Part shown: positions 2,453 through 13,659 of the stretch, piece after piece
How positions within the stretch are numbered: position 1 is the first letter of the stretch
How the letters are laid out: each line of letters begins with the position of its first letter
Assembly: GCA_029856525.1 (NCBI GenBank)
Contig: JAHQXC010000028.1
Span: 1-15,216 of the forward strand
Length of the DNA: 15,216 bases
Reading direction: 5' to 3'
DNA from: Candidatus Odinarchaeia archaeon
GTDB taxonomy: Archaea; Asgardarchaeota; Odinarchaeia; Odinarchaeales; Odinarchaeaceae
The notes under the pieces: model-generated
Database searches by the model: none
What the model was told of the DNA's origin: nothing
The model's input: only the letters and a program-made list of their open reading frames with translations
Position numbers and translations under genes: made by a program

Positions 2453-3823
2453 ATGAGCCTTAACATATTAGATAAAACAGTAAAAATTCTGCGAGAATAC
2501 AAGCTTTGCAGTAATTGTTTAGGTAGAATGTTCGGTATGCTAGGAACAGGGTTAACTAATAAGGAGAGGGGTGAAGCGTTAATAATCGCTTTAATGATGC
2601 TTGCAGATGAAGAGATGAAGAATGAAGCTGCGGATAAGCTAAACGAGATAATCGAGGCTTTAAAAAATGTTGCCGGATTCAAAACACTCTATAAATTTCT
2701 ATCGGAGAGACTTAGTTTAAAACAGAGTGAAAACGTTTGCTACATTTGCGAAAATATTTTTGATCGACTTGAAGAATTAGTAAAGAAAAGTCTAAGTGAA
2801 ATCAACTCCTATGAGTTCAAAACCTTCTTAGTCGGCACGAATATAGATGAGAAGATAATTGAAAGAGAAGACAATTTCAGAGCGAAATTCAGTTTAACAT
2901 GGGGGGAATCTATTAAAAGCGAATTAAACAGGGAGATAGGTAAAATAATAAAAAAGCATTTCCCCGATGTGGAAACCAGTTTCGAAAACCCTCACATAAT
3001 AATCGAGTATAGCATTCCTAGCTTCAATTACAAGATAAACGTCAACCCTGTTTTCATATATGGAAGATATAGAAAATTAGTTAGAGGTATACCTCAAACC
3101 AAGTGGATTTGTAAAAGCTGCAAGGGAACTGGATGTGAAAGATGCGGTTTTAAAGGTAGAATGTATGATATCTCCGTGGAAGAGTTAATTTCTAAGCCTG
3201 TTATAGAGAAACTTAACGGAGTTAACGCGAAATTTCACGGCGCGGGAAGAGAGGATATAGATGCGATAATGACAGGTTTCGGGAGACCGTTCGTATTAGA
3301 GGTGAAAGGTGTTAAAAAAAGATTCATAGAATTAGAAGAACTGAAATCAGAGATCAATAATTACGCTAACGGTAAAGTTGAAGTCTCCGACTTAAAATGG
3401 ACTTCTAGAAATATGATTCGAAAAATTAAAGCACTCTCAAAGATTACAAGGAAAAAATACAGGGCTATTGTCCAATTAAATAATAATATAACAGACGACA
3501 AGATTATTGAAGCTGAAAAATATCTTTCAAACACTATTATTCAACAAAGAACACCTAAGCGAGTAGCTCATAGGAGAAGTGATAAACTTAGAGAAAAGCA
3601 AGTTTACAGCTTAAAAATAACAAGACTATCAGAGGATAAACTTGAAGTAATCGTTGACTGTCAAGGAGGACTCTATGTGAAAGAGCTTGTCAGCGGAGAC
3701 GACGGTAGAACTAAACCAAGCCTATCTGAGATATTAGGGGTTGAAGCGAAATGCATTCAATTAGACGTATTAGACGTTGATCTACCAGATGACGTGGTTA
3801 AAACAGGAATTCTTGATAAGTGA
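2453..3823 (+). CDS. pus10: tRNA pseudouridine(54/55) synthase Pus10
   Basis: N-terminal CxxC...CxxC, THUMP-like region, GRYRKLVRGIPQT, catalytic GAGREDID, QRTPKRVAHRR and GGLYVKELVSGDDGRT motifs. SD AGGTGA lies upstream. Confidence 0.97.
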   Translation: MSLNILDKTVKILREYKLCSNCLGRMFGMLGTGLTNKERGEALIIALMMLADEEMKNEAADKLNEIIEALKNVAGFKTLYKFLSERLSLKQSENVCYICENIFDRLEELVKKSLSEINSYEFKTFLVGTNIDEKIIEREDNFRAKFSLTWGESIKSELNREIGKIIKKHFPDVETSFENPHIIIEYSIPSFNYKINVNPVFIYGRYRKLVRGIPQTKWICKSCKGTGCERCGFKGRMYDISVEELISKPVIEKLNGVNAKFHGAGREDIDAIMTGFGRPFVLEVKGVKKRFIELEELKSEINNYANGKVEVSDLKWTSRNMIRKIKALSKITRKKYRAIVQLNNNITDDKIIEAEKYLSNTIIQQRTPKRVAHRRSDKLREKQVYSLKITRLSEDKLEVIVDCQGGLYVKELVSGDDGRTKPSLSEILGVEAKCIQLDVLDVDLPDDVVKTGILDK

Positions 3824-3835
3824 GCTACTCCTCGA

Positions 3836-3992
3836 CTAAAGTCGGGAGCTTCCAGCGTTCGTCTGAGGCTTTACACCTTCAGTTACACGTGCTGGTTCGC
3901 GGGGCTCACAGCTCCGCCATCCTGTGCCTCTCATTAAGGCATGGGCTATGTTTATGCATGCGTTCCGGTCTTCGGTTGTAGATTAACCCACA
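3836..3992 (-). pseudogene. tnpB: tnpB C-terminal remnant (end of zinc finger and RuvC-III), +1 frameshift
   Basis: Reads CGLIYNR (3992-3972), one extra A (3971), then DRNACINIA...GSSRL-stop. This matches the TnpB CGxxxxRDxNAxxNI motif. Confidence 0.8.
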
Positions 3993-4033
3993 TCAAGGGA
4001 ATATCCCTAAAACTTTTTTAAACACCGCGCGGA

Positions 4034-4046
4034 TATTTAAGTTTCT
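4034..4046 (-). promoter_or_regulatory. BRE-TATA inside E1 (AGAAA-CTTAAATA), predicted start near 4010
   Basis: Lies directly inside the LE hairpin, the same position as the TATA-like boxes in E2, E3 and E4. Confidence 0.5.
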
Positions 4047-4204
4047 GCCCATTCACCCCCTAACTGAAGTTAGGGGTTTTCTGGGCACCCTTTTTTATAA
4101 AAGCTAGTTTTTTAATAGCACACCAAAGAGTTTTTATTTTAATTGAATTATTCAGTTAGTTAACATGAAAGCTAATATGTGTTTAATAAGATAGGGTGCT
4201 AGTT

Positions 4205-8850: not shown

Positions 8851-9021
8851 TTAGAGAAACATAGAAGCCTACCGTATATCGATTGGAATAAGCTAATCTC
8901 TAGCAGAGAAGTAACAGCTTATACTCTTAAAGCATGTTGAAAAACCACTCGACCAGTGCGCTAATTTAAAGGTGTTTAGCTTTCAAACTATACTTTAACG
9001 AATAGAAGCGGTAGCTGAAAA

Positions 9022-9201
9022 GTGAACTACCCCTCCTTATCGGATGGGGTTTCCTGCTTCAATGATGAAGCCTGCCGGTATTTTCGACCGGTAGAGGCCC
9101 CGTCTCAGCCCGCATCTCTATCCTTTTTTACACTTGAAAACCGTAAATACTTTTCAGCTTTCAACCCCTAGCTTTCGCAGGGTGACTTCCAGCCGATAAA
9201 G
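9022..9201 (-). mobile_element. Element E2: 180-bp non-coding IS200/IS605-type mini-element (LE, promoter, about 100-nt scaffold, RE)
   Basis: RE reads GAAGCAGGAAA-CCCC-A-TCC-GATAA-GGA-GGGG-TAGTTCAC. LE reads TTTAA|CTTTATCGGCTGGAAG plus a CCCTGC-GAAA-GC-T-AGGG hairpin. Colinear with E3 end to end. The LE boundary is uncertain by about 3 nt. Confidence 0.88.
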
Positions 9202-9501
9202 TTAAAAGCCGAGTATTTTTCTAGCTTCAGGGGACATCATTTCAGGAGACCATGGGGGATCCCAAACCACTTGAACCTCTACTTTACCGATACCTTTAAT
9301 ATTACTCAATTTATTACGAACCTCGTTAGCTATTAAAGAGTGTAACGGACATCCTGGAGCTGTTAAAGTCATTTTCACATAAACATCCTTGCCGTCTTTA
9401 ATCTGAACATCGTATATTAAACCTAAATCAACAATATTAACAGGTATTTCGGGATCATAACAGGTTTTTAAAACTTTTATTACTTCCTCTTTTGAAATCA
9501 T
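9202..9501 (-). CDS. DUF59/MIP18 (SufT/PaaD-like) Fe-S cluster assembly protein
   Basis: 99 aa with DPEIPVNIVDLGLIY, TAPGCP and PPWSPEMM. SD GGTGGT at 9514-9509. Confidence 0.93.
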   Translation of the reverse strand: MISKEEVIKVLKTCYDPEIPVNIVDLGLIYDVQIKDGKDVYVKMTLTAPGCPLHSLIANEVRNKLSNIKGIGKVEVQVVWDPPWSPEMMSPEARKILGF

Positions 9502-9544
9502 TTAAGCAACCACCGTTAATTTTAAGTTATTTTATAGTAGCTTA

Positions 9545-9764
9545 GTGAATCACTCCAGCTCTCATAAACGGCTTCCGCTTCATAGAGAAGACTCACCGCG
9601 AGCGCAACCCGGAGGGAGTTGAATGCTACTCTTCGCCGGCTTCTCAGAGCTAACACAGCTCTAATAATCCTCTATGAGAGTGGAGCTCTCACAAAATATA
9701 ATGTAACCACGTCTTTATAAGAGTATCAGCCCCAAGACTGAGATGGGGATTCTAGCCTATAAAG
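9545..9764 (-). mobile_element. Element E4: 220-bp IS200/IS605-type mini-element with a remodelled RNA scaffold
   Basis: LE TTTAAA|CTTTATAGGCTAGAAT-CCCCA..TGGGG-CTGA is homologous to the E2/E3 LE. TTATAAAG at 9720-9713. RE-like TGAAGCGGAAGCC...GGAG-TGATTCAC. GTGAGTC (9596-9590) is complementary to the terminal GATTCAC (9551-9545). Confidence 0.72.
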
Positions 9765-9974
9765 TTTAAATATTGCAGCCGCAGCCTCAAAGAAAATTAG
9801 ATTAAGCGCATAGAATAACTCTGAAGCTTCTATATTATACTAATAAACTCCGACAAAGTTAAATATAGTAATGCATAACGTTAAGAATACTTAACTTGAG
9901 TGAAAAATGGAATGCTCGGTTAAATCACTATTATATTTCAAAAAACTCTAGTAGTCAATGCAGGTGAATTTAAT

Positions 9975-10505
9975 ATGCCTAAAAGACCTGGACATTGTTA
10001 TAGCAAGCTAGAGCCTAGACCATACGTGAAAAAAAAGACACGTAAGAAGAAAGAGCTAGTTAGAGGGGTCCCGGACAGTAAGATTCAAGTATTCGAGATG
10101 GGTGCGAAAGGGGTAAAATTCCCTGTTTATGTTCATCTCGTAGCTAAAGAAGCTGGACAGATAAGACATTTCGCGCTTGAAGCCGCCCGTGTCTCAGCTA
10201 ACCGTCTTCTAGAGAAGCAGGCAGTAAGCAAAGAGAGCTATCATTTGAAGGTTAGAGTTTATCCTCACCATGTTTTACGTGAAAATAAAATGATGGCTTT
10301 TGCTGGAGCGGATAGACTTCAAGACGGTATGAGAAGAGCTTTCGGTAAACCTATAGGAACAGCTGCGAGGGTTAGAGCTAACCAGGAGATTATTACTATA
10401 GGAGTTGTCCCACAGCTTCTAGAAACCGCTAAATTAGCTCTTAAGAGAGCTGCGGCGAAGATCCCTCTCCCATGCTCGATAGTAGTTACATCAAGTAACG
10501 ATTAA
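9975..10505 (+). CDS. rpl10e: 50S ribosomal protein L10e/L16 (uL16)
   Basis: RGVPDSKI, IRHFALEAARV, RVYPHHVLRENK and ADRLQDGMRRAFGKPIGTAARV motifs. SD AGGTGA. Confidence 0.97.
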   Translation: MPKRPGHCYSKLEPRPYVKKKTRKKKELVRGVPDSKIQVFEMGAKGVKFPVYVHLVAKEAGQIRHFALEAARVSANRLLEKQAVSKESYHLKVRVYPHHVLRENKMMAFAGADRLQDGMRRAFGKPIGTAARVRANQEIITIGVVPQLLETAKLALKRAAAKIPLPCSIVVTSSND

Positions 10506-10510
10506 CACTA

Positions 10511-10556
10511 TATTTTTATTTTTTATAAAAGATTAGCTGATTTAAAAAATATTTTT
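10511..10556. terminator. Oligo-T terminator zone between convergent rpl10e and ppsA
   Basis: T-runs at about 10511-10524 on the plus strand and A-runs at 10527-10530 and 10544-10549 (T-runs on the minus strand). Confidence 0.5.
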
Positions 10557-12951
10557 ATGAGAGGATTTTCCAGAAGTCTAGTTCATCCTCATCTAATCCG
10601 CTTATTCTAAGCTTAGATTTACCTGTAACCTTCTCTAACGCGAGTTTCCTTTCAATTTGAGCTACGTGCATCCTAGTTGATATAACAGCGTCAGGGTTCA
10701 CGCTTATACTTGTAACGCCGAGTCTTACAAGAAATTCAGCATATTCAGGGTAAACGCTGGGAGCTTGACCGCATATGGAAACAGTTACACCGTATTTTTT
10801 ACAAACCTTTGTAACATAATTTATAGCTCTTAACACAGCTATATCCCGTTCATCATAGATCTCTTGTACACTAGCATCGTTTCTGTCAACTCCTAAAATT
10901 AACATAGTCAGATCATTAGAGCCTATGCTAATACCGTTAATGCCTTCAGCGCATAATTTATCTATGATGAAAACAGCTGATGGGACTTCTAGCATTATCC
11001 AAAGCCAGAAGTCATGATCCTGCTCCGGGTTTAATCCTTCACTGTAAATTATCTCTTTGACCTTTCTAAACTCTCCTATAGTTCTAACAAAAGGTATCAT
11101 TAAATGAACGTTTTTTAGATTATATTTTTCTCTCACTCTTTTAATCGCTGCTAACTCTAATTTGAATATCTCCGGTTCCTTAGTGTACCTAAACTGGCCT
11201 CTGTAACCGATCATAGGATTAGGCCCGATATGCCCGGCTTCGCGCTCATATTTTTCACCGCCTTCTAGAGCTAAAAATTCATCAGGTTTAAAATCTAAGG
11301 CTCTGTATATAACCGGTTTAGGATGGAAAGCTTGAGCTACCATCCTTATGCTTTCAGCGAATTTATCAATCATTAGTTCAGCGCCACCCTCCTCTATTAG
11401 AAGCTTAGGATGCTTCCCTATTGAGAGCATCATATGCTCAGCTCTTAGAAGACCTACACCGTCAGCTAAGGTTTCACGCGCTACTTGCTCGGCTTTTTCA
11501 GGTATTGATAGATTGACATAGATTTTTGTAGCTGTAATAGGCTGCTCGAAAACTGTCCCTGTTACAGATGCTTTCCGCTCTTCTATTCCTTGAACTAAAC
11601 CATCGTATACAAATCCTTTGCTGCCGTCAACCGTCACTAACTGAGTATTTTTTAAAATAGTTGTCGCATTTCCAGCTCCTACAACACATGGAACACCTAG
11701 TTCTCTACTGACGATCGCGGCGTGACATGTATAGCCGCCTTCATCGGTCACTATAGCACTCGCCTTCTTCATAGCTGGAACCCATGAAGGCGTAGTCATT
11801 TTTGTAACTAATACATCCCCGTTCTGAATTTTATTAATTTCACTAGAATCTAAAATTATGTTAACCTTACCTGCGCCAACACCAGGGCTTACAGGCAAAC
11901 CTTTAACTAGAATTTTACTCTCGGAAACCGCTTGAACAGCCTCTGTTTTTTTAACACCTTGAGCCCCGTAAACTGTTTCAGGTCTAGCTTGAAGAATATA
12001 TATTTTATGAGTTTCTCTATCTATAGCCCATTCAATATCCATCGGGATACCGTAGTGTTCTTCTATTTTTTTAGCTATACGCGCCAATTCTAAAACATAT
12101 TCATCTGAGATACATAATTTCTCCTGCTCCTCTTTAGGAACAGGGACTGTAACCACTTTACCTGTTTTAATATCGATAATATCTTTTGTAGCTTTCTTAC
12201 CGATCTGTTTTTCAACTATCCTCATAGTGTTCTTGTCTACGATGAATGTGTCAGGTGTTACAGATCCGCTTACCACCGCCTCACCGAGGCCGTAGCTTGC
12301 GTCTATTAATATTTTAGTTGGGTCACCTGTAACGGGATGTATAGTAAACATAACTCCCTGAGCTTCAGGATCCGGGGCAACCATCTCCTGAACGGCGACG
12401 CTTATCAGTATTTTTTCATGATCGAATCCTTTCTCATGCCGGTAGGATATAGCTCTAGGTGTGTAAAGTGAACTCCAGCATTTCATTACCGCTTCTATTA
12501 AATGATCTTTATCAACATTCAGAAAAGTATCTTGTTGACCTGCGAAGCTGGCTCCTGGAAGATCTTCAGCTGTAGCGCTTGATCGAATAGATAAGCGGAC
12601 GTTTTTATGAGTTAAACTTTCCAGCCGATTATACGCTTCTAGTATCGCCTGCTTTATTTCAGGGAACATTGGAGTTGACTCGATTAAAGTTCTTATCTCG
12701 CGTGAAATTTGATTAAGCTTGTTAAGATCAGATAAATCTATGTTTTTCAAAGCTGATTTTATTTTATTTAACAATCCAGACTCAGTGATGAATCTTTTAT
12801 ACGCGTAAGCTGTTACAGCGAAGCCTTTAGGTGTAGGAGCTCCAGCTCGAGTGAGCTCGCCTAAATTAGCGCATTTCCCTCCCACGTAAGGTATGTCTGA
12901 TTTTGAGAGTTCATCGAACCATAATATGAGCTTCTTTGACTTATCAGACAT
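10555..12951 (-). CDS. ppsA: Phosphoenolpyruvate synthase (pyruvate, water dikinase)
   Basis: 798 aa with VGGKCANLGEL, RSSATAEDLPGASFAGQQDT, phospho-His motif GGYTCHAAIVSRELG, NPMIGYRG, SIGSNDLT and ICGQAPS. SD AGGTGG. Confidence 0.97.
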   Translation of the reverse strand: MSDKSKKLILWFDELSKSDIPYVGGKCANLGELTRAGAPTPKGFAVTAYAYKRFITESGLLNKIKSALKNIDLSDLNKLNQISREIRTLIESTPMFPEIKQAILEAYNRLESLTHKNVRLSIRSSATAEDLPGASFAGQQDTFLNVDKDHLIEAVMKCWSSLYTPRAISYRHEKGFDHEKILISVAVQEMVAPDPEAQGVMFTIHPVTGDPTKILIDASYGLGEAVVSGSVTPDTFIVDKNTMRIVEKQIGKKATKDIIDIKTGKVVTVPVPKEEQEKLCISDEYVLELARIAKKIEEHYGIPMDIEWAIDRETHKIYILQARPETVYGAQGVKKTEAVQAVSESKILVKGLPVSPGVGAGKVNIILDSSEINKIQNGDVLVTKMTTPSWVPAMKKASAIVTDEGGYTCHAAIVSRELGVPCVVGAGNATTILKNTQLVTVDGSKGFVYDGLVQGIEERKASVTGTVFEQPITATKIYVNLSIPEKAEQVARETLADGVGLLRAEHMMLSIGKHPKLLIEEGGAELMIDKFAESIRMVAQAFHPKPVIYRALDFKPDEFLALEGGEKYEREAGHIGPNPMIGYRGQFRYTKEPEIFKLELAAIKRVREKYNLKNVHLMIPFVRTIGEFRKVKEIIYSEGLNPEQDHDFWLWIMLEVPSAVFIIDKLCAEGINGISIGSNDLTMLILGVDRNDASVQEIYDERDIAVLRAINYVTKVCKKYGVTVSICGQAPSVYPEYAEFLVRLGVTSISVNPDAVISTRMHVAQIERKLALEKVTGKSKLRISGLDEDELDFWKILS

Positions 12952-12995
12952 TTAAACCACCTTAAACAGAATACCAATTTTATACTTTTATACAA

Positions 12996-13010
12996 ATATA
13001 TATTTTTTAC
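12996..13010 (-). promoter_or_regulatory. BRE-TATA candidate for ppsA (GTAAAAAA-TATATAT)
   Basis: About 45 nt upstream of the ATG, which puts the expected start site upstream of the SD. Confidence 0.5.
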
Positions 13011-13020
13011 TATTCAGATA

Positions 13021-13196
13021 GTGAACTACCCTTATCGGAAGGGGGTTTCCTGTTTTAATGATGAAGCTTACTGGTGTGTTTCGCCCAGTAGAGGCTCCGT
13101 CTCAGCCCCGCATCTTTATCTTTTTTGAAGATTTGGAATTATAAATATCTTCTGGCTTCAGCCTCCAGCTTTAGCAGGGGCTTCCCGCCGATGAAG
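13021..13196 (-). mobile_element. Element E3: 176-bp sister of E2 with a shortened RE hairpin
   Basis: LE TTTAA|CTTCATCGGCGGGAAG-CCCCTGC-TAAA-GC-TGGAGG-CTGA; TATTTATA at 13147-13140; RE GGAAACCCCCTTCCGATAAGGGTAGTTCAC. Aligns to E2 over its full length. Confidence 0.88.
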
Positions 13197-13224
13197 TTAA
13201 AATGAGAGGATTAGAAAAGTTCGC

Positions 13225-13659
13225 TCATAGATTATATGAGAGGAGAATGCTTTTACTAGTATTAGTGGTTTTGAAAAACTTTAAAATATTCTCTGAGGGG
13301 AACTCGCCTGATAGACATCTTATAATGAGAGAGCTGTTAACTTTTATCGAGAGTGTGAGAAGATCCATTATAATTTCTATAGGCGGTCTGATACTGTAAA
13401 TTAAATCAGTATCATAGTAATTCTCGAGATGAGGGTTGCTTACGTCGTCGAGTATTATTTTTAAATCAGTTTTTTCATTGATAAACTCGCTTACCTCTAA
13501 TGATCTATCTACTACTAGTATTTCTGTTTTAGGATACAGTGCTTTCAGTTTCAAAGCTATATCAGGATAGAAGCCTACTCCGATTTCAACTATTTTTTTA
13601 GGCGAAGTAAATCTTTCCGATATAAAGTTTATTATTTCATCTTGGTCTAGTAAAGGCAC
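13225..13659 (-). CDS. UPF0146 family protein (Rossmann, methyltransferase-like)
   Basis: GTG start 4 nt after the eno stop. KIVEIGVG, DD..P and DLIYSIRPP.E are family-like motifs. Confidence 0.8.
   Translation of the reverse strand: MPLLDQDEIINFISERFTSPKKIVEIGVGFYPDIALKLKALYPKTEILVVDRSLEVSEFINEKTDLKIILDDVSNPHLENYYDTDLIYSIRPPIEIIMDLLTLSIKVNSSLIIRCLSGEFPSENILKFFKTTNTSKSILLSYNL

What the first reader, a model, noticed from the sequence alone, without database searches (positions are those of the whole stretch)
9022..13196. E2/E3 define a compact scaffold of about 100 nt with compensatory base changes
Seen in sequence: E2 and E3 are colinear. By eye the RE-proximal 100 nt are clearly more similar than the promoter spacer. 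The stem CTACCGGT/ACCGGCAG in E2 (9094-9072) becomes TACTGG/CCAGTA in E3 (13090-13069), with a C-G to T-A double change and an A-C mismatch repaired to A-T. GGGGCCT/AGGCTTC becomes GGAGCCT/AAGCTTC, a G-U to A-U change, though one other pair is lost. An invariant GCTGAGAC could pair (UGAG/UUCA) with the 3' end. A related motif GATG(G)CGG(A)GCTG(T)GAG lies about 95-100 nt from the end in E1 as well. Inference: selection acts on RNA structure, and the scaffold is short for a TnpB reRNA.
Basis: partly seen in the sequence, partly recalled or inferred. Interest (0 to 1): 0.7.

Follow-up and report, generated by a model that had tools for sequence, protein, structure and literature searches.

The report
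Truncated TnpB guide-RNA scaffold in mini-transposons
E2 and E3 are two of about 21 gene-less IS200/IS605 mini-transposons (PATEs) in an Odinarchaeal genome; each carries a promoter fused to a TnpB guide-RNA scaffold whose stems are real and conserved across Asgard archaea, but it is short only because a 22-base deletion removed its 5' core, so this is a clean example of a known kind of element.

Summary
E2 (9022-9200, minus strand) and E3 (13021-13195, minus strand) are copies of a ~180-bp PATE with about 21 near-full copies in this genome. Other agents in this scan already identified the family on other contigs, and my independent work agrees.

- **Stems are real.** Homologous scaffolds overlap the 3' end of intact TnpB genes in related Asgard genomes. 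On a structure-blind alignment of 55 such scaffolds the stems covary strongly (0 of 500 shuffles reach the observed values).
- **E2/E3 changes do not show selection.** Among 13 same-genome copies covariation is no higher than in shuffles, and the CCGG stem pair is C-A in 5 copies.
- **The scaffold is not the best-kept part.** It is less conserved (77%) than the spacer (82%) or the TATA box (88%).
- **The 100-nt size comes from a deletion.** The family's full scaffold is about 114 nt with an ISDra2-like layout. E2 and E3 lack 22 nt: half of stem 1, the best-supported candidate for the pseudoknot loop, and one strand of stem 2.
- **No partner found.** No cognate TnpB is in the assembly, and no RNA data exist.

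This is a known kind of element and of low interest.

The parts
9201..9206 (-). TTTAAC target motif (TAM) next to the E2 left end. It overlaps the stop codon of the DUF59 gene.
   Evidence: TTTAAC precedes every copy, and the sequence upstream of it is unrelated between copies. The same GGCTTTTAAC is present at the empty site in same-genus genome G002.
9022..9200 (-). E2: a 179-bp PATE made of an LE hairpin, a BRE/TATA box, a spacer, a truncated omegaRNA scaffold and the RE ending GTAGTTCAC.
   Evidence: Best nhmmer and CM hit of the family. The locus in G001/G002 has an intergenic region about 177 nt shorter.
9137..9149 (-). BRE/TATA-like box (AAAAGTATTTACG in E2; family consensus AAAAGTATTTATA). 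The predicted transcription start is near 9123-9125.
   Evidence: This is the most conserved segment of the family, at 88% pairwise identity. Its function as a promoter is inferred from the archaeal consensus and was not tested.
9067..9101 (-). Stem 3 of the scaffold. Stem 3a is GGGGCCU (9095-9101) paired with AGGCUUC (9067-9073). Stem 3b is ACCGGU (9087-9092) paired with ACCGGC (9074-9079).
   Evidence: Covariation across genomes: the stem 3a pair reads GC:22 AU:15 CG:4, and all six stem 3b pairs show changes on both sides.
9029..9050 (-). Stem 4, which is also the RE subterminal hairpin (ACCCCAUCC GAUAA GGAGGGGU).
   Evidence: 73-96% of cells are paired and 5 of 9 pairs show changes on both sides. 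It has the same form as the LE hairpin, so TnpA recognition of the DNA may also constrain it (inference).
9022..9028 (-). 3' tail AGUUCAC. The guide would start at 9021 and run downward.
   Evidence: GUAGUUCAC is near-invariant in 55 scaffolds. GUUC pairs with the stem-1 loop GGAC in full-length relatives.
9102..9112 (-). Deletion junction GAUGCGGGCUGAGAC. Half of stem 1, the pseudoknot loop and the CCUG strand of stem 2 are missing here.
   Evidence: Alignment with the long copies C32 and C119b and with TnpB-linked relatives shows 22-23 columns absent.
13021..13195 (-). E3: a 175-bp PATE of the same subtype with the same deletion. Its TAM TTTAAC is at 13196-13201. Its RE lies 70 nt upstream of the ppsA start codon, in the same orientation.
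   Evidence: There is an empty site in G001 and G002, where the flanks at 13023 and 13200 abut.
3820..4100 (-). E1: a PATE of a different family, an internally deleted copy of the TnpB element on contig C93. The internal GUGAGC (3905-3910) is complementary to the terminal GCUCAC (3820-3825).
   Evidence: blastn: E1 positions 1-107 and 108-281 match C93:25961-26065 and 27133-27305, which flank a 426-aa TnpB.

Best explanation
E2 and E3 are non-autonomous, gene-less derivatives (PATEs) of an IS200/IS605-type TnpB transposon.

**Anatomy.** Each copy sits directly 3' of a TTTAAC target motif. It carries, in order, a left-end hairpin, the parent's archaeal BRE/TATA promoter, and the 3' part of the parent's omegaRNA (reRNA) scaffold, which ends GUAGUUCAC at the right end.

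**Full scaffold in relatives.** In TnpB-encoding relatives the scaffold is about 114 nt and has an ISDra2-like layout:
- a stem-1 hairpin whose loop GGAC pairs with the 3' GUUC to form a pseudoknot;
- a long-range stem 2 (CCUG with CAGG);
- stem 4, which is also the right-end hairpin.

**What E2 and E3 are.** They belong to a subtype of 9-10 copies that descends from one copy. That copy lost 22 nt between GCUG direct repeats, which removed the 3' half of stem 1, the pseudoknot loop and the 5' strand of stem 2.

**Shown.** Family membership, anatomy, homology to TnpB-linked scaffolds, cross-genome covariation, the deletion, and empty sites in sister genomes.

**Inferred.**
- The promoter drives a roughly 100-nt RNA that runs into the flank.
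- Copies were spread in trans by a Y1 TnpA.
- This truncated RNA is probably a decaying relic rather than an efficient guide. It lacks core elements, no cognate TnpB is in the assembly, and same-genome copies show no structural selection.
For: - **Copy number.** There are about 21 near-full copies and about 11 fragments in the 1.32-Mb genome, with sharp boundaries at TTTAAC| and GTTCAC|.
- **Distribution.** CM R1 finds homologues in 16 of 61 genomes searched (G000 included; the other 15 are related Asgard genomes), and in none of the 3 same-genus genomes.
- **TnpB link.** In at least 6 relatives the scaffold overlaps the 3' end of 377-408-aa ORFs. The four scanned against Pfam carry HTH_OrfB_IS605, OrfB_IS605 and Cas12f1-like TNB domains.
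- **Covariation.** On the structure-blind MAFFT alignment of 55 scaffolds:
  - 87.6% of cells are paired against 79.7% in shuffles;
  - 150 double-change cells are seen against 59 in shuffles;
  - 0 of 500 shuffles reach the observed values;
  - structures with partners slid by 1-3 columns pair in 35-46% of cells.

  The CM-fitted alignment gives the same result.
- **Strand.** G-U/U-G cells outnumber A-C/C-A cells by 180 to 76, and 30 of the 76 are one conserved C-A pair. This fits a structure on the GTTCAC strand.
- **Deletion.** The 22-nt deletion is documented.
- **Empty sites.** E2 and E3 are absent from the orthologous sites in same-genus genomes.
- **Literature.**
  - PATEs arise from IS605-type elements by repeat-mediated core deletion (PMC3119063).
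  - PATEs often encode omegaRNAs that TnpB acts on in trans (PMC10055086).
  - Standalone omegaRNAs function in trans (PMC10691335).
  - The ISDra2 scaffold is 116 nt, with a pseudoknot between nucleotides -5..-3 and -103..-105 (PMC10097598).
Against: - The truncated subtype is the most numerous in the genome, so it spread after the deletion. If spread depended on the RNA, the RNA would have to work. TnpA-only mobilisation explains the spread equally well.
- The promoter is the best-conserved segment, which could mean that transcription still matters.
- The assembly is 93% complete in 127 contigs, and several copies sit at contig ends, so a cognate TnpB could be unassembled.
- Stem-4 covariation may reflect TnpA recognition of the DNA hairpin rather than RNA.
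- The pseudoknot assignment rests on two sequences with double changes and on analogy to ISDra2.
Confidence: 0.85

Rival explanations
1. E2/E3-type RNAs are functional, naturally minimised omegaRNAs. The roughly 100-nt scaffold without stem 1 is loaded in trans by a TnpB, either the 426-aa C93 protein or an unassembled cognate, and it guides cleavage of TTTAAC-flanked empty sites.
For: - The truncated subtype reached 9-10 copies.
- The promoter and spacer are well conserved.
- The E1-type omegaRNA of the C93 TnpB shares the 3' module GGAAGC, hairpin, GUAG(C/U)UCAC.
- Other PATEs in relatives (L027, L071) also have junctions inside stem 1.
- Standalone omegaRNAs work in trans (PMC10691335).
- 5' trimming of the ISDra2 omegaRNA down to -116 is tolerated (PMC10097598).
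Against: - The deletion removes the best-supported pseudoknot partner and one strand of stem 2. The ISDra2 structure paper describes this core as conserved and important for cleavage (PMC10097598).
- Same-genome copies show no excess of pair-preserving change.
- The own-genome TnpBs are only about 24% identical to the cognate type.
- Several independent deletions in the same region (A1, A2 and C40 types) look like unconstrained slippage.
Confidence: 0.12
2. The conserved pairings are DNA hairpins used by the TnpA transposase on single-stranded DNA, not RNA structure.
For: Stem 4 has the same form as the LE hairpin (CCCCCUGC GAAA GCUGGGGG). It sits where IS200/IS605 subterminal palindromes lie, as established for the family (PMC3119063).
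Against: - Stems 1, 2 and 3 and the long-range pseudoknot lie 30-114 nt inside the end. They overlap the tnpB coding tail, where known omegaRNAs lie (PMC10097598).
- Stem 2 and the pseudoknot are long-range pairings, not simple hairpins.
- There is a roughly 4:1 excess of wobble cells over A-C cells once the one conserved C-A pair is set aside.
Confidence: 0.05
3. The elements have been domesticated as mobile promoters or regulatory RNAs. For example, E3 could drive or modulate ppsA, whose start lies 70 nt downstream.
For: The BRE/TATA box is the best-conserved segment. E3 is co-oriented with ppsA and directly upstream of it.
Against: - Sister genomes express the same gene arrangement without the element.
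- E2 points into a convergent gene end.
- Copies are scattered with no common neighbour.
Confidence: 0.04

Closest known systems
PATEs (palindrome-associated transposable elements) of IS605/IS1341-type transposons, defined in Haloquadratum walsbyi (PMC3119063) and noted in Geobacillus stearothermophilus (PMC10055086)
   Same: - Too short to encode a protein.
- No inverted terminal repeats and no target duplication.
- Near-terminal palindromes like those of TnpB-bearing elements.
- Insertion next to a short target motif.
- Origin by repeat-mediated core deletion.
- Many diverged copies.
- Often carry an omegaRNA.
   Different: The host is an Odinarchaeial (Asgard) archaeon. The parent's promoter is fused directly to the scaffold. 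The dominant subtype has a second deletion inside the scaffold.
ISDra2 TnpB omegaRNA (Deinococcus radiodurans; cryo-EM, PMC10097598)
   Same: - The scaffold overlaps the tnpB 3' end and runs to the right end.
- The functional scaffold is about 114-116 nt.
- A stem-1 hairpin loop pairs with the nucleotides just 5' of the guide to form a pseudoknot.
- A 4-bp long-range stem 2 is present.
- A long stem 3 has a dispensable or variable tip.
- A terminal stem 4 has a loop about 17-20 nt from the end.
   Different: There is no sequence similarity and no Rfam match. The TAM is TTTAAC rather than TTGAT. The architecture here is inferred from covariation, not solved. E2 and E3 lack stem 1, the pseudoknot loop and the stem-2 strand.
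Standalone (effector-less) omegaRNAs of OMEGA systems (as summarised in PMC10691335)
   Same: They are mobilised omegaRNA loci without an effector or transposase gene, and can be used in trans by a compatible effector in the same genome.
   Different: No compatible effector was found in this assembly, and the scaffold is truncated.

Membership tests
PATE / non-autonomous IS200/IS605 element | Too short to encode a transposase or TnpB | tested here: met
   The elements are 175-179 bp and contain no ORF of 80 aa or more.
PATE / non-autonomous IS200/IS605 element | Ends homologous to those of TnpB-bearing IS elements, with near-terminal palindromes and no inverted terminal repeats | tested here: met
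   The RE and scaffold are homologous to the 3' ends of TnpB genes in relatives. The LE and RE hairpins have the same form on the same strand.
PATE / non-autonomous IS200/IS605 element | Insertion 3' of a short conserved target motif, without target duplication | tested here: met
   TTTAAC precedes all copies and the flanks are otherwise unrelated. The motif pre-exists at the empty E2 site in G002. No duplicated flank is visible at E2 or E3.
PATE / non-autonomous IS200/IS605 element | Mobile: multi-copy, with presence/absence polymorphism | tested here: met
   About 21 copies are present. Both sites are empty in same-genus genomes.
PATE / non-autonomous IS200/IS605 element | A Y1 TnpA available in trans | tested here: inconclusive
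   One tnpA-tnpB element lies on C44, with an LE that also follows TTTTTAAC and starts TTCATAG. Whether its TnpA recognises the E2-family ends was not tested.
TnpB omegaRNA (reRNA) | Encoded at and overlapping the 3' end of tnpB and ending at the transposon right end | tested here: met
   This holds for homologues in relatives. For example, in L028 the ORF spans 384-1580 and the scaffold ends at 1598. E2 and E3 themselves have no tnpB.
TnpB omegaRNA (reRNA) | Conserved secondary structure supported by covariation | tested here: met
   Met at family level. Not detectable among same-genome copies.
TnpB omegaRNA (reRNA) | Pseudoknot between the nucleotides just 5' of the guide and an upstream stem-1 loop (the core conserved in TnpB and Cas12 guides, PMC10097598) | tested here: not met
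Present in full-length relatives: loop GGAC with GUUC, 95.8% paired, with two A-U to G-C double changes. In E2 and E3 the loop is deleted.
TnpB omegaRNA (reRNA) | Cognate TnpB present and RNA bound or used | tested here: not met
   The best own-genome match to the relatives' TnpB is 24% identical. Binding cannot be tested with these tools.
TnpB omegaRNA (reRNA) | Transcribed | not testable with these tools
   No RNA run is listed for this organism.
Any Rfam family | Covariance-model match | tested here: not met
   No hit at E<=1 on E1, E2 or E3.

The most novel reading that the evidence does not exclude
The E2/E3 subtype is a naturally minimised omegaRNA that still guides a TnpB in trans, even though it lacks stem 1, the canonical pseudoknot loop and one strand of stem 2. 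GAGAC or CUG would substitute for the lost partners. Its expansion to 9-10 copies would then reflect selection for a compact guide cassette with its own promoter.
Probability: 0.1. Interest if true: 0.5.

Novelty: new member of a known kind. Interest (0 to 1): 0.25.

Why it matters
The result settles what the repeats are. It also shows that the attractive 'compensatory change' reading from two copies does not hold at that level, although the helices themselves are genuine.

Two useful by-products follow. The first is a covariation-supported, ISDra2-like structural model of about 114 nt for an Asgard TnpB omegaRNA family that Rfam does not cover. The second is a set of natural truncation variants (A1, A2, C40 and the stem-3 tip insertions) that could guide trimming experiments on the cognate 377-408-aa TnpBs.

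It does not reveal a new system.

Tried and rejected
- **tRNA or known RNA family.** ARAGORN found nothing. Rfam at E<=1 gave only a sub-threshold sR24 hit elsewhere in the window.
- **RNAalifold on 21 own-genome copies.** It recovered only the ACCGG hairpin, with essentially no covariation term.
- **Local hairpin GCUUCA/UGAAGC as an alternative to stem 3a.** It pairs in 69% of cells, its two central pairs are mostly unpaired, and shuffles reach the observed pairing in 57 of 500 trials. Rejected in favour of the nested stem.
- **Two other pseudoknot candidates with the 3' UUCA.** Both can pair (83% and 90% of cells), but the columns are near-invariant, so neither can be tested.
- **Cognate TnpB in the own genome.** Sought with Pfam PF07282 and PF01385 and with relatives' proteins. 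Only the C93 and C44 TnpBs were found, at 23-28% identity.
- **Expression.** No RNA holder is listed for this stretch. The only holder is a sediment metagenome DNA run, probably the source sample.
- **First E2 empty-site alignment.** It used the wrong sub-window and was redone.
- **Mistyped calls.** Searches were formatting errors and were corrected.
Full report
**What is there.** The window is contig C29 of a 1.32-Mb, 127-contig archaeal assembly. Earlier notes of this scan call it an Odinarchaeia (Asgard) genome. The genes around the finding are ordinary archaeal housekeeping genes (SRP54, L21e, KsgA, L10e, PEP synthase, enolase).

E2 and E3 are colinear on the minus strand.

blastn and iterative nhmmer against the whole genome show that E2 and E3 belong to a repeat family with about 21 near-full copies and about 11 fragments. 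The multiple alignment gives sharp boundaries. Unrelated flank is followed by TTTAAC. Then come a left-end hairpin, a conserved AAAAGTATTTATA box, about 25 nt of spacer, a GC-rich scaffold of about 93 nt ending GGGGTAGTTCAC, and unrelated flank again.

By these boundaries E2 is 9022-9200 and E3 is 13021-13195, both on the minus strand. E1 (3820-4100) belongs to a different family. It is an internally deleted copy of the element on contig C93 that encodes a 426-aa TnpB.

**Is it a TnpB guide-RNA scaffold?** A covariance model built from 13 short copies found homologues in 16 of 61 genomes searched (G000 included; the other 15 are related Asgard genomes). None of the three genomes of the same genus had one.

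In at least six relatives the match overlaps the last ~100 nt of a 377-408-aa ORF and ends about 18 nt after its stop codon. The four ORFs scanned carry HTH_OrfB_IS605, OrfB_IS605 and Cas12f1-like TNB domains. That is the position of a TnpB omegaRNA (PMC10097598). Other relatives hold protein-less versions with a TATA box fused to the scaffold, like E2 and E3.

The own genome has only two full TnpB genes, on C93 and C44. Both are 23-28% identical to the cognate type. E2 and E3 are therefore PATEs that carry an orphan omegaRNA scaffold.

This kind of element is described in three sources:
- PATEs arise from IS605-type elements by repeat-mediated core deletion (PMC3119063).
- PATEs 'often encode omegaRNAs' that TnpB acts on in trans (PMC10055086).
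- Standalone omegaRNAs function in trans (PMC10691335).

Several earlier reports of this scan reached the same reading for other copies of this family. My analysis agrees with them. The term PATE and the PMC3119063 lead came from those notes; I then checked the papers myself.

**Mobility and target.** The orthologous sites in same-genus genomes G001 and G002 lack both elements. For E3 the flanks at window 13023 and 13200 abut in G001. For E2 the intergenic region is about 177 nt shorter, and G002 carries GGCTTTTAAC at the junction. TTTAAC is therefore the target motif rather than part of the element.

The covariation score is below the shuffle mean. An alternative fold does no better. The quoted C-G to U-A change sits in a column pair that reads CG:6, UA:2, C-A:5. 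Both U-A copies lie on the A background, which would happen by chance about one time in four.

The 'repaired' and 'lost' pairs are also misread. C-A at the second-last pair of stem 3a is the family consensus (37 of 39 sequences).

The scaffold is not better conserved than the spacer. E2 against E3 gives scaffold 77%, spacer 71% and LE 74%. Twelve short copies give TATA 88%, spacer 82% and scaffold 77%.

*Across genomes.* Here the answer reverses. On the CM-fitted alignment of 48 scaffolds, 19 of 21 pairs show changes on both sides, and no shuffle reaches any of the five measures.

That alignment leans towards the model, so I repeated the test on a structure-blind MAFFT alignment of 55 full scaffolds with an extended structure:

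| Measure | Observed | Shuffled mean | Shuffles reaching observed |
|---|---|---|---|
| Cells paired | 87.6% | 79.7% | 0/500 |
| Double-change cells | 150 | 59 | 0/500 |
| Pairs with a change on both sides | 21 | 15.2 | 2/500 |

Versions with the 3' partners slid by 1-3 columns pair in only 35-46% of cells.

It is better supported than the competing local hairpin GCUUCA/UGAAGC. The ACCGG hairpin (stem 3b) covaries at every pair and tolerates tip insertions of up to about 30 nt.

Wobble pairs outnumber A-C cells by 180 to 76, and 30 of the 76 are the single conserved C-A pair. This places the structure on the strand that ends GTTCAC.

**Architecture and the 'compact' scaffold.** The family's full scaffold is about 114 nt. 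Its parts, from 5' to 3', are:
- a stem-1 hairpin (GGGCAG-GGAC-CUGCCC);
- a linker;
- GCCUG;
- YGGAGAY;
- stem 3a and 3b;
- a conserved single strand (A/G)UC(A/G)UUGAA;
- CAGGAAGC;
- stem 4;
- the tail GUAGUUCAC.

CCUG pairs with CAGG as stem 2. This is 97.7% paired, with G-C to C-G swaps in two sequences, and the E1 type has CCAGC/GCUGG instead.

The stem-1 loop GGAC can pair with the 3' GUUC. This is 95.8% paired. The two relatives whose tail reads GCUC (L029 and L041) have G in place of A in the loop.

This layout mirrors ISDra2. There, a 116-nt scaffold has stems 1-4, and nucleotides -5..-3 pair with -103..-105 inside the stem-1 region to form a pseudoknot (PMC10097598).

Aligned with this genome's long copies (C32, C119b) and with TnpB-linked relatives, E2 and E3 lack 22-23 nt between GCUG direct repeats. 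The missing part comprises the 3' half of stem 1, the GGAC loop, the linker and the CCUG strand of stem 2.

Other copies carry different deletions in the same spot (A2 type: C11a, C24, C109; also C40). The roughly 100-nt 'compact scaffold' is therefore a truncated derivative and not a short native design.

A third option, UUGAA/UUCA, pairs even better. In E1 the analogous pairing GUGAGC/GCUCAC is a clean 6 bp.

**How it most likely works.**

*Shown:* element anatomy, homology, structure conservation, the deletion, and insertion polymorphism.

*Inferred:* A Y1 TnpA supplied in trans excises and inserts the element next to TTTAAC; one tnpA-tnpB element exists on C44, and its LE follows the same motif. 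The retained tnpB promoter would start a transcript about 24 nt downstream of the TATA box. That transcript would run through the scaffold into the flank and so carry a guide for the element's own empty site.

The RNA lacks the pseudoknot and stem-2 core, no cognate TnpB is assembled, same-genome copies show no structural selection, and the region has suffered repeated slippage deletions. I therefore consider the E2/E3 RNA most likely a decaying relic.

The main counter-arguments are that the truncated subtype is the most numerous and that its promoter is the best-kept part. I give a functional compact guide about 10-12%. No RNA data were available.

**Verdict.** The element is a new member of a known kind (PATE with omegaRNA), and interest is low.

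Noticed in passing
window 9540-9765 (minus strand): A fourth GC-rich mini-element ('E4') ends GGAGTGATTCAC near 9547. It has only one short match elsewhere in the genome (C71). Together with E2 it brackets the 99-aa DUF59 gene in the same orientation.
   Followed up: partly
window 12951-13021: The right end of E3 lies 70 nt upstream of the PEP synthase (ppsA) start codon and is co-oriented with it. Read-through from the element's promoter into ppsA is possible. Sister genomes have the same gene order without the element.
   Followed up: partly
G000 contigs C18:1814-2049, C93:3500-3760, C125:9465-9551, C10, C3, C84, C82, C13: The left-end module TTTAAC-TTTATCGGCGGGAAGCCC-GTGAAAGC-GGGG is shared by several otherwise different short elements. 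The genome therefore holds more PATE families with a common LE type than the E2 family alone.
   Followed up: partly
L034, L038, L039, L040, L050, L051 (relatives G032, G049, G051, G058): Stem 3b of the omegaRNA carries lineage-specific tip insertions of 20-30 nt that themselves look like hairpins. This parallels the dispensable stem 3b of ISDra2.
   Followed up: no
relatives G004, G005, G006, G014 (e.g. L035, L046, L072): A PATE subtype in these genomes replaces the long stem 3 with a short hairpin (UCCC-GUU-GGGG) while keeping stem 1, GCCUG, CAGGAAGC, stem 4 and the tail. It is a different natural minimisation from that of E2 and E3.
   Followed up: no
window 13318-13350 (plus strand): A sub-threshold Rfam hit to the C/D-box sRNA sR24 (23.6 bits against a gathering score of 36, E=0.1) lies inside the 144-aa ORF on the opposite strand. 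It is probably chance.
   Followed up: no
PMC10691335 (literature): Asgard Cas1-associated TnpB loci are reported to have a conserved GTTCACTCA motif downstream of a hypervariable region. GTTCAC is also the terminal motif of this family's right end. A possible link was not examined.
   Followed up: no
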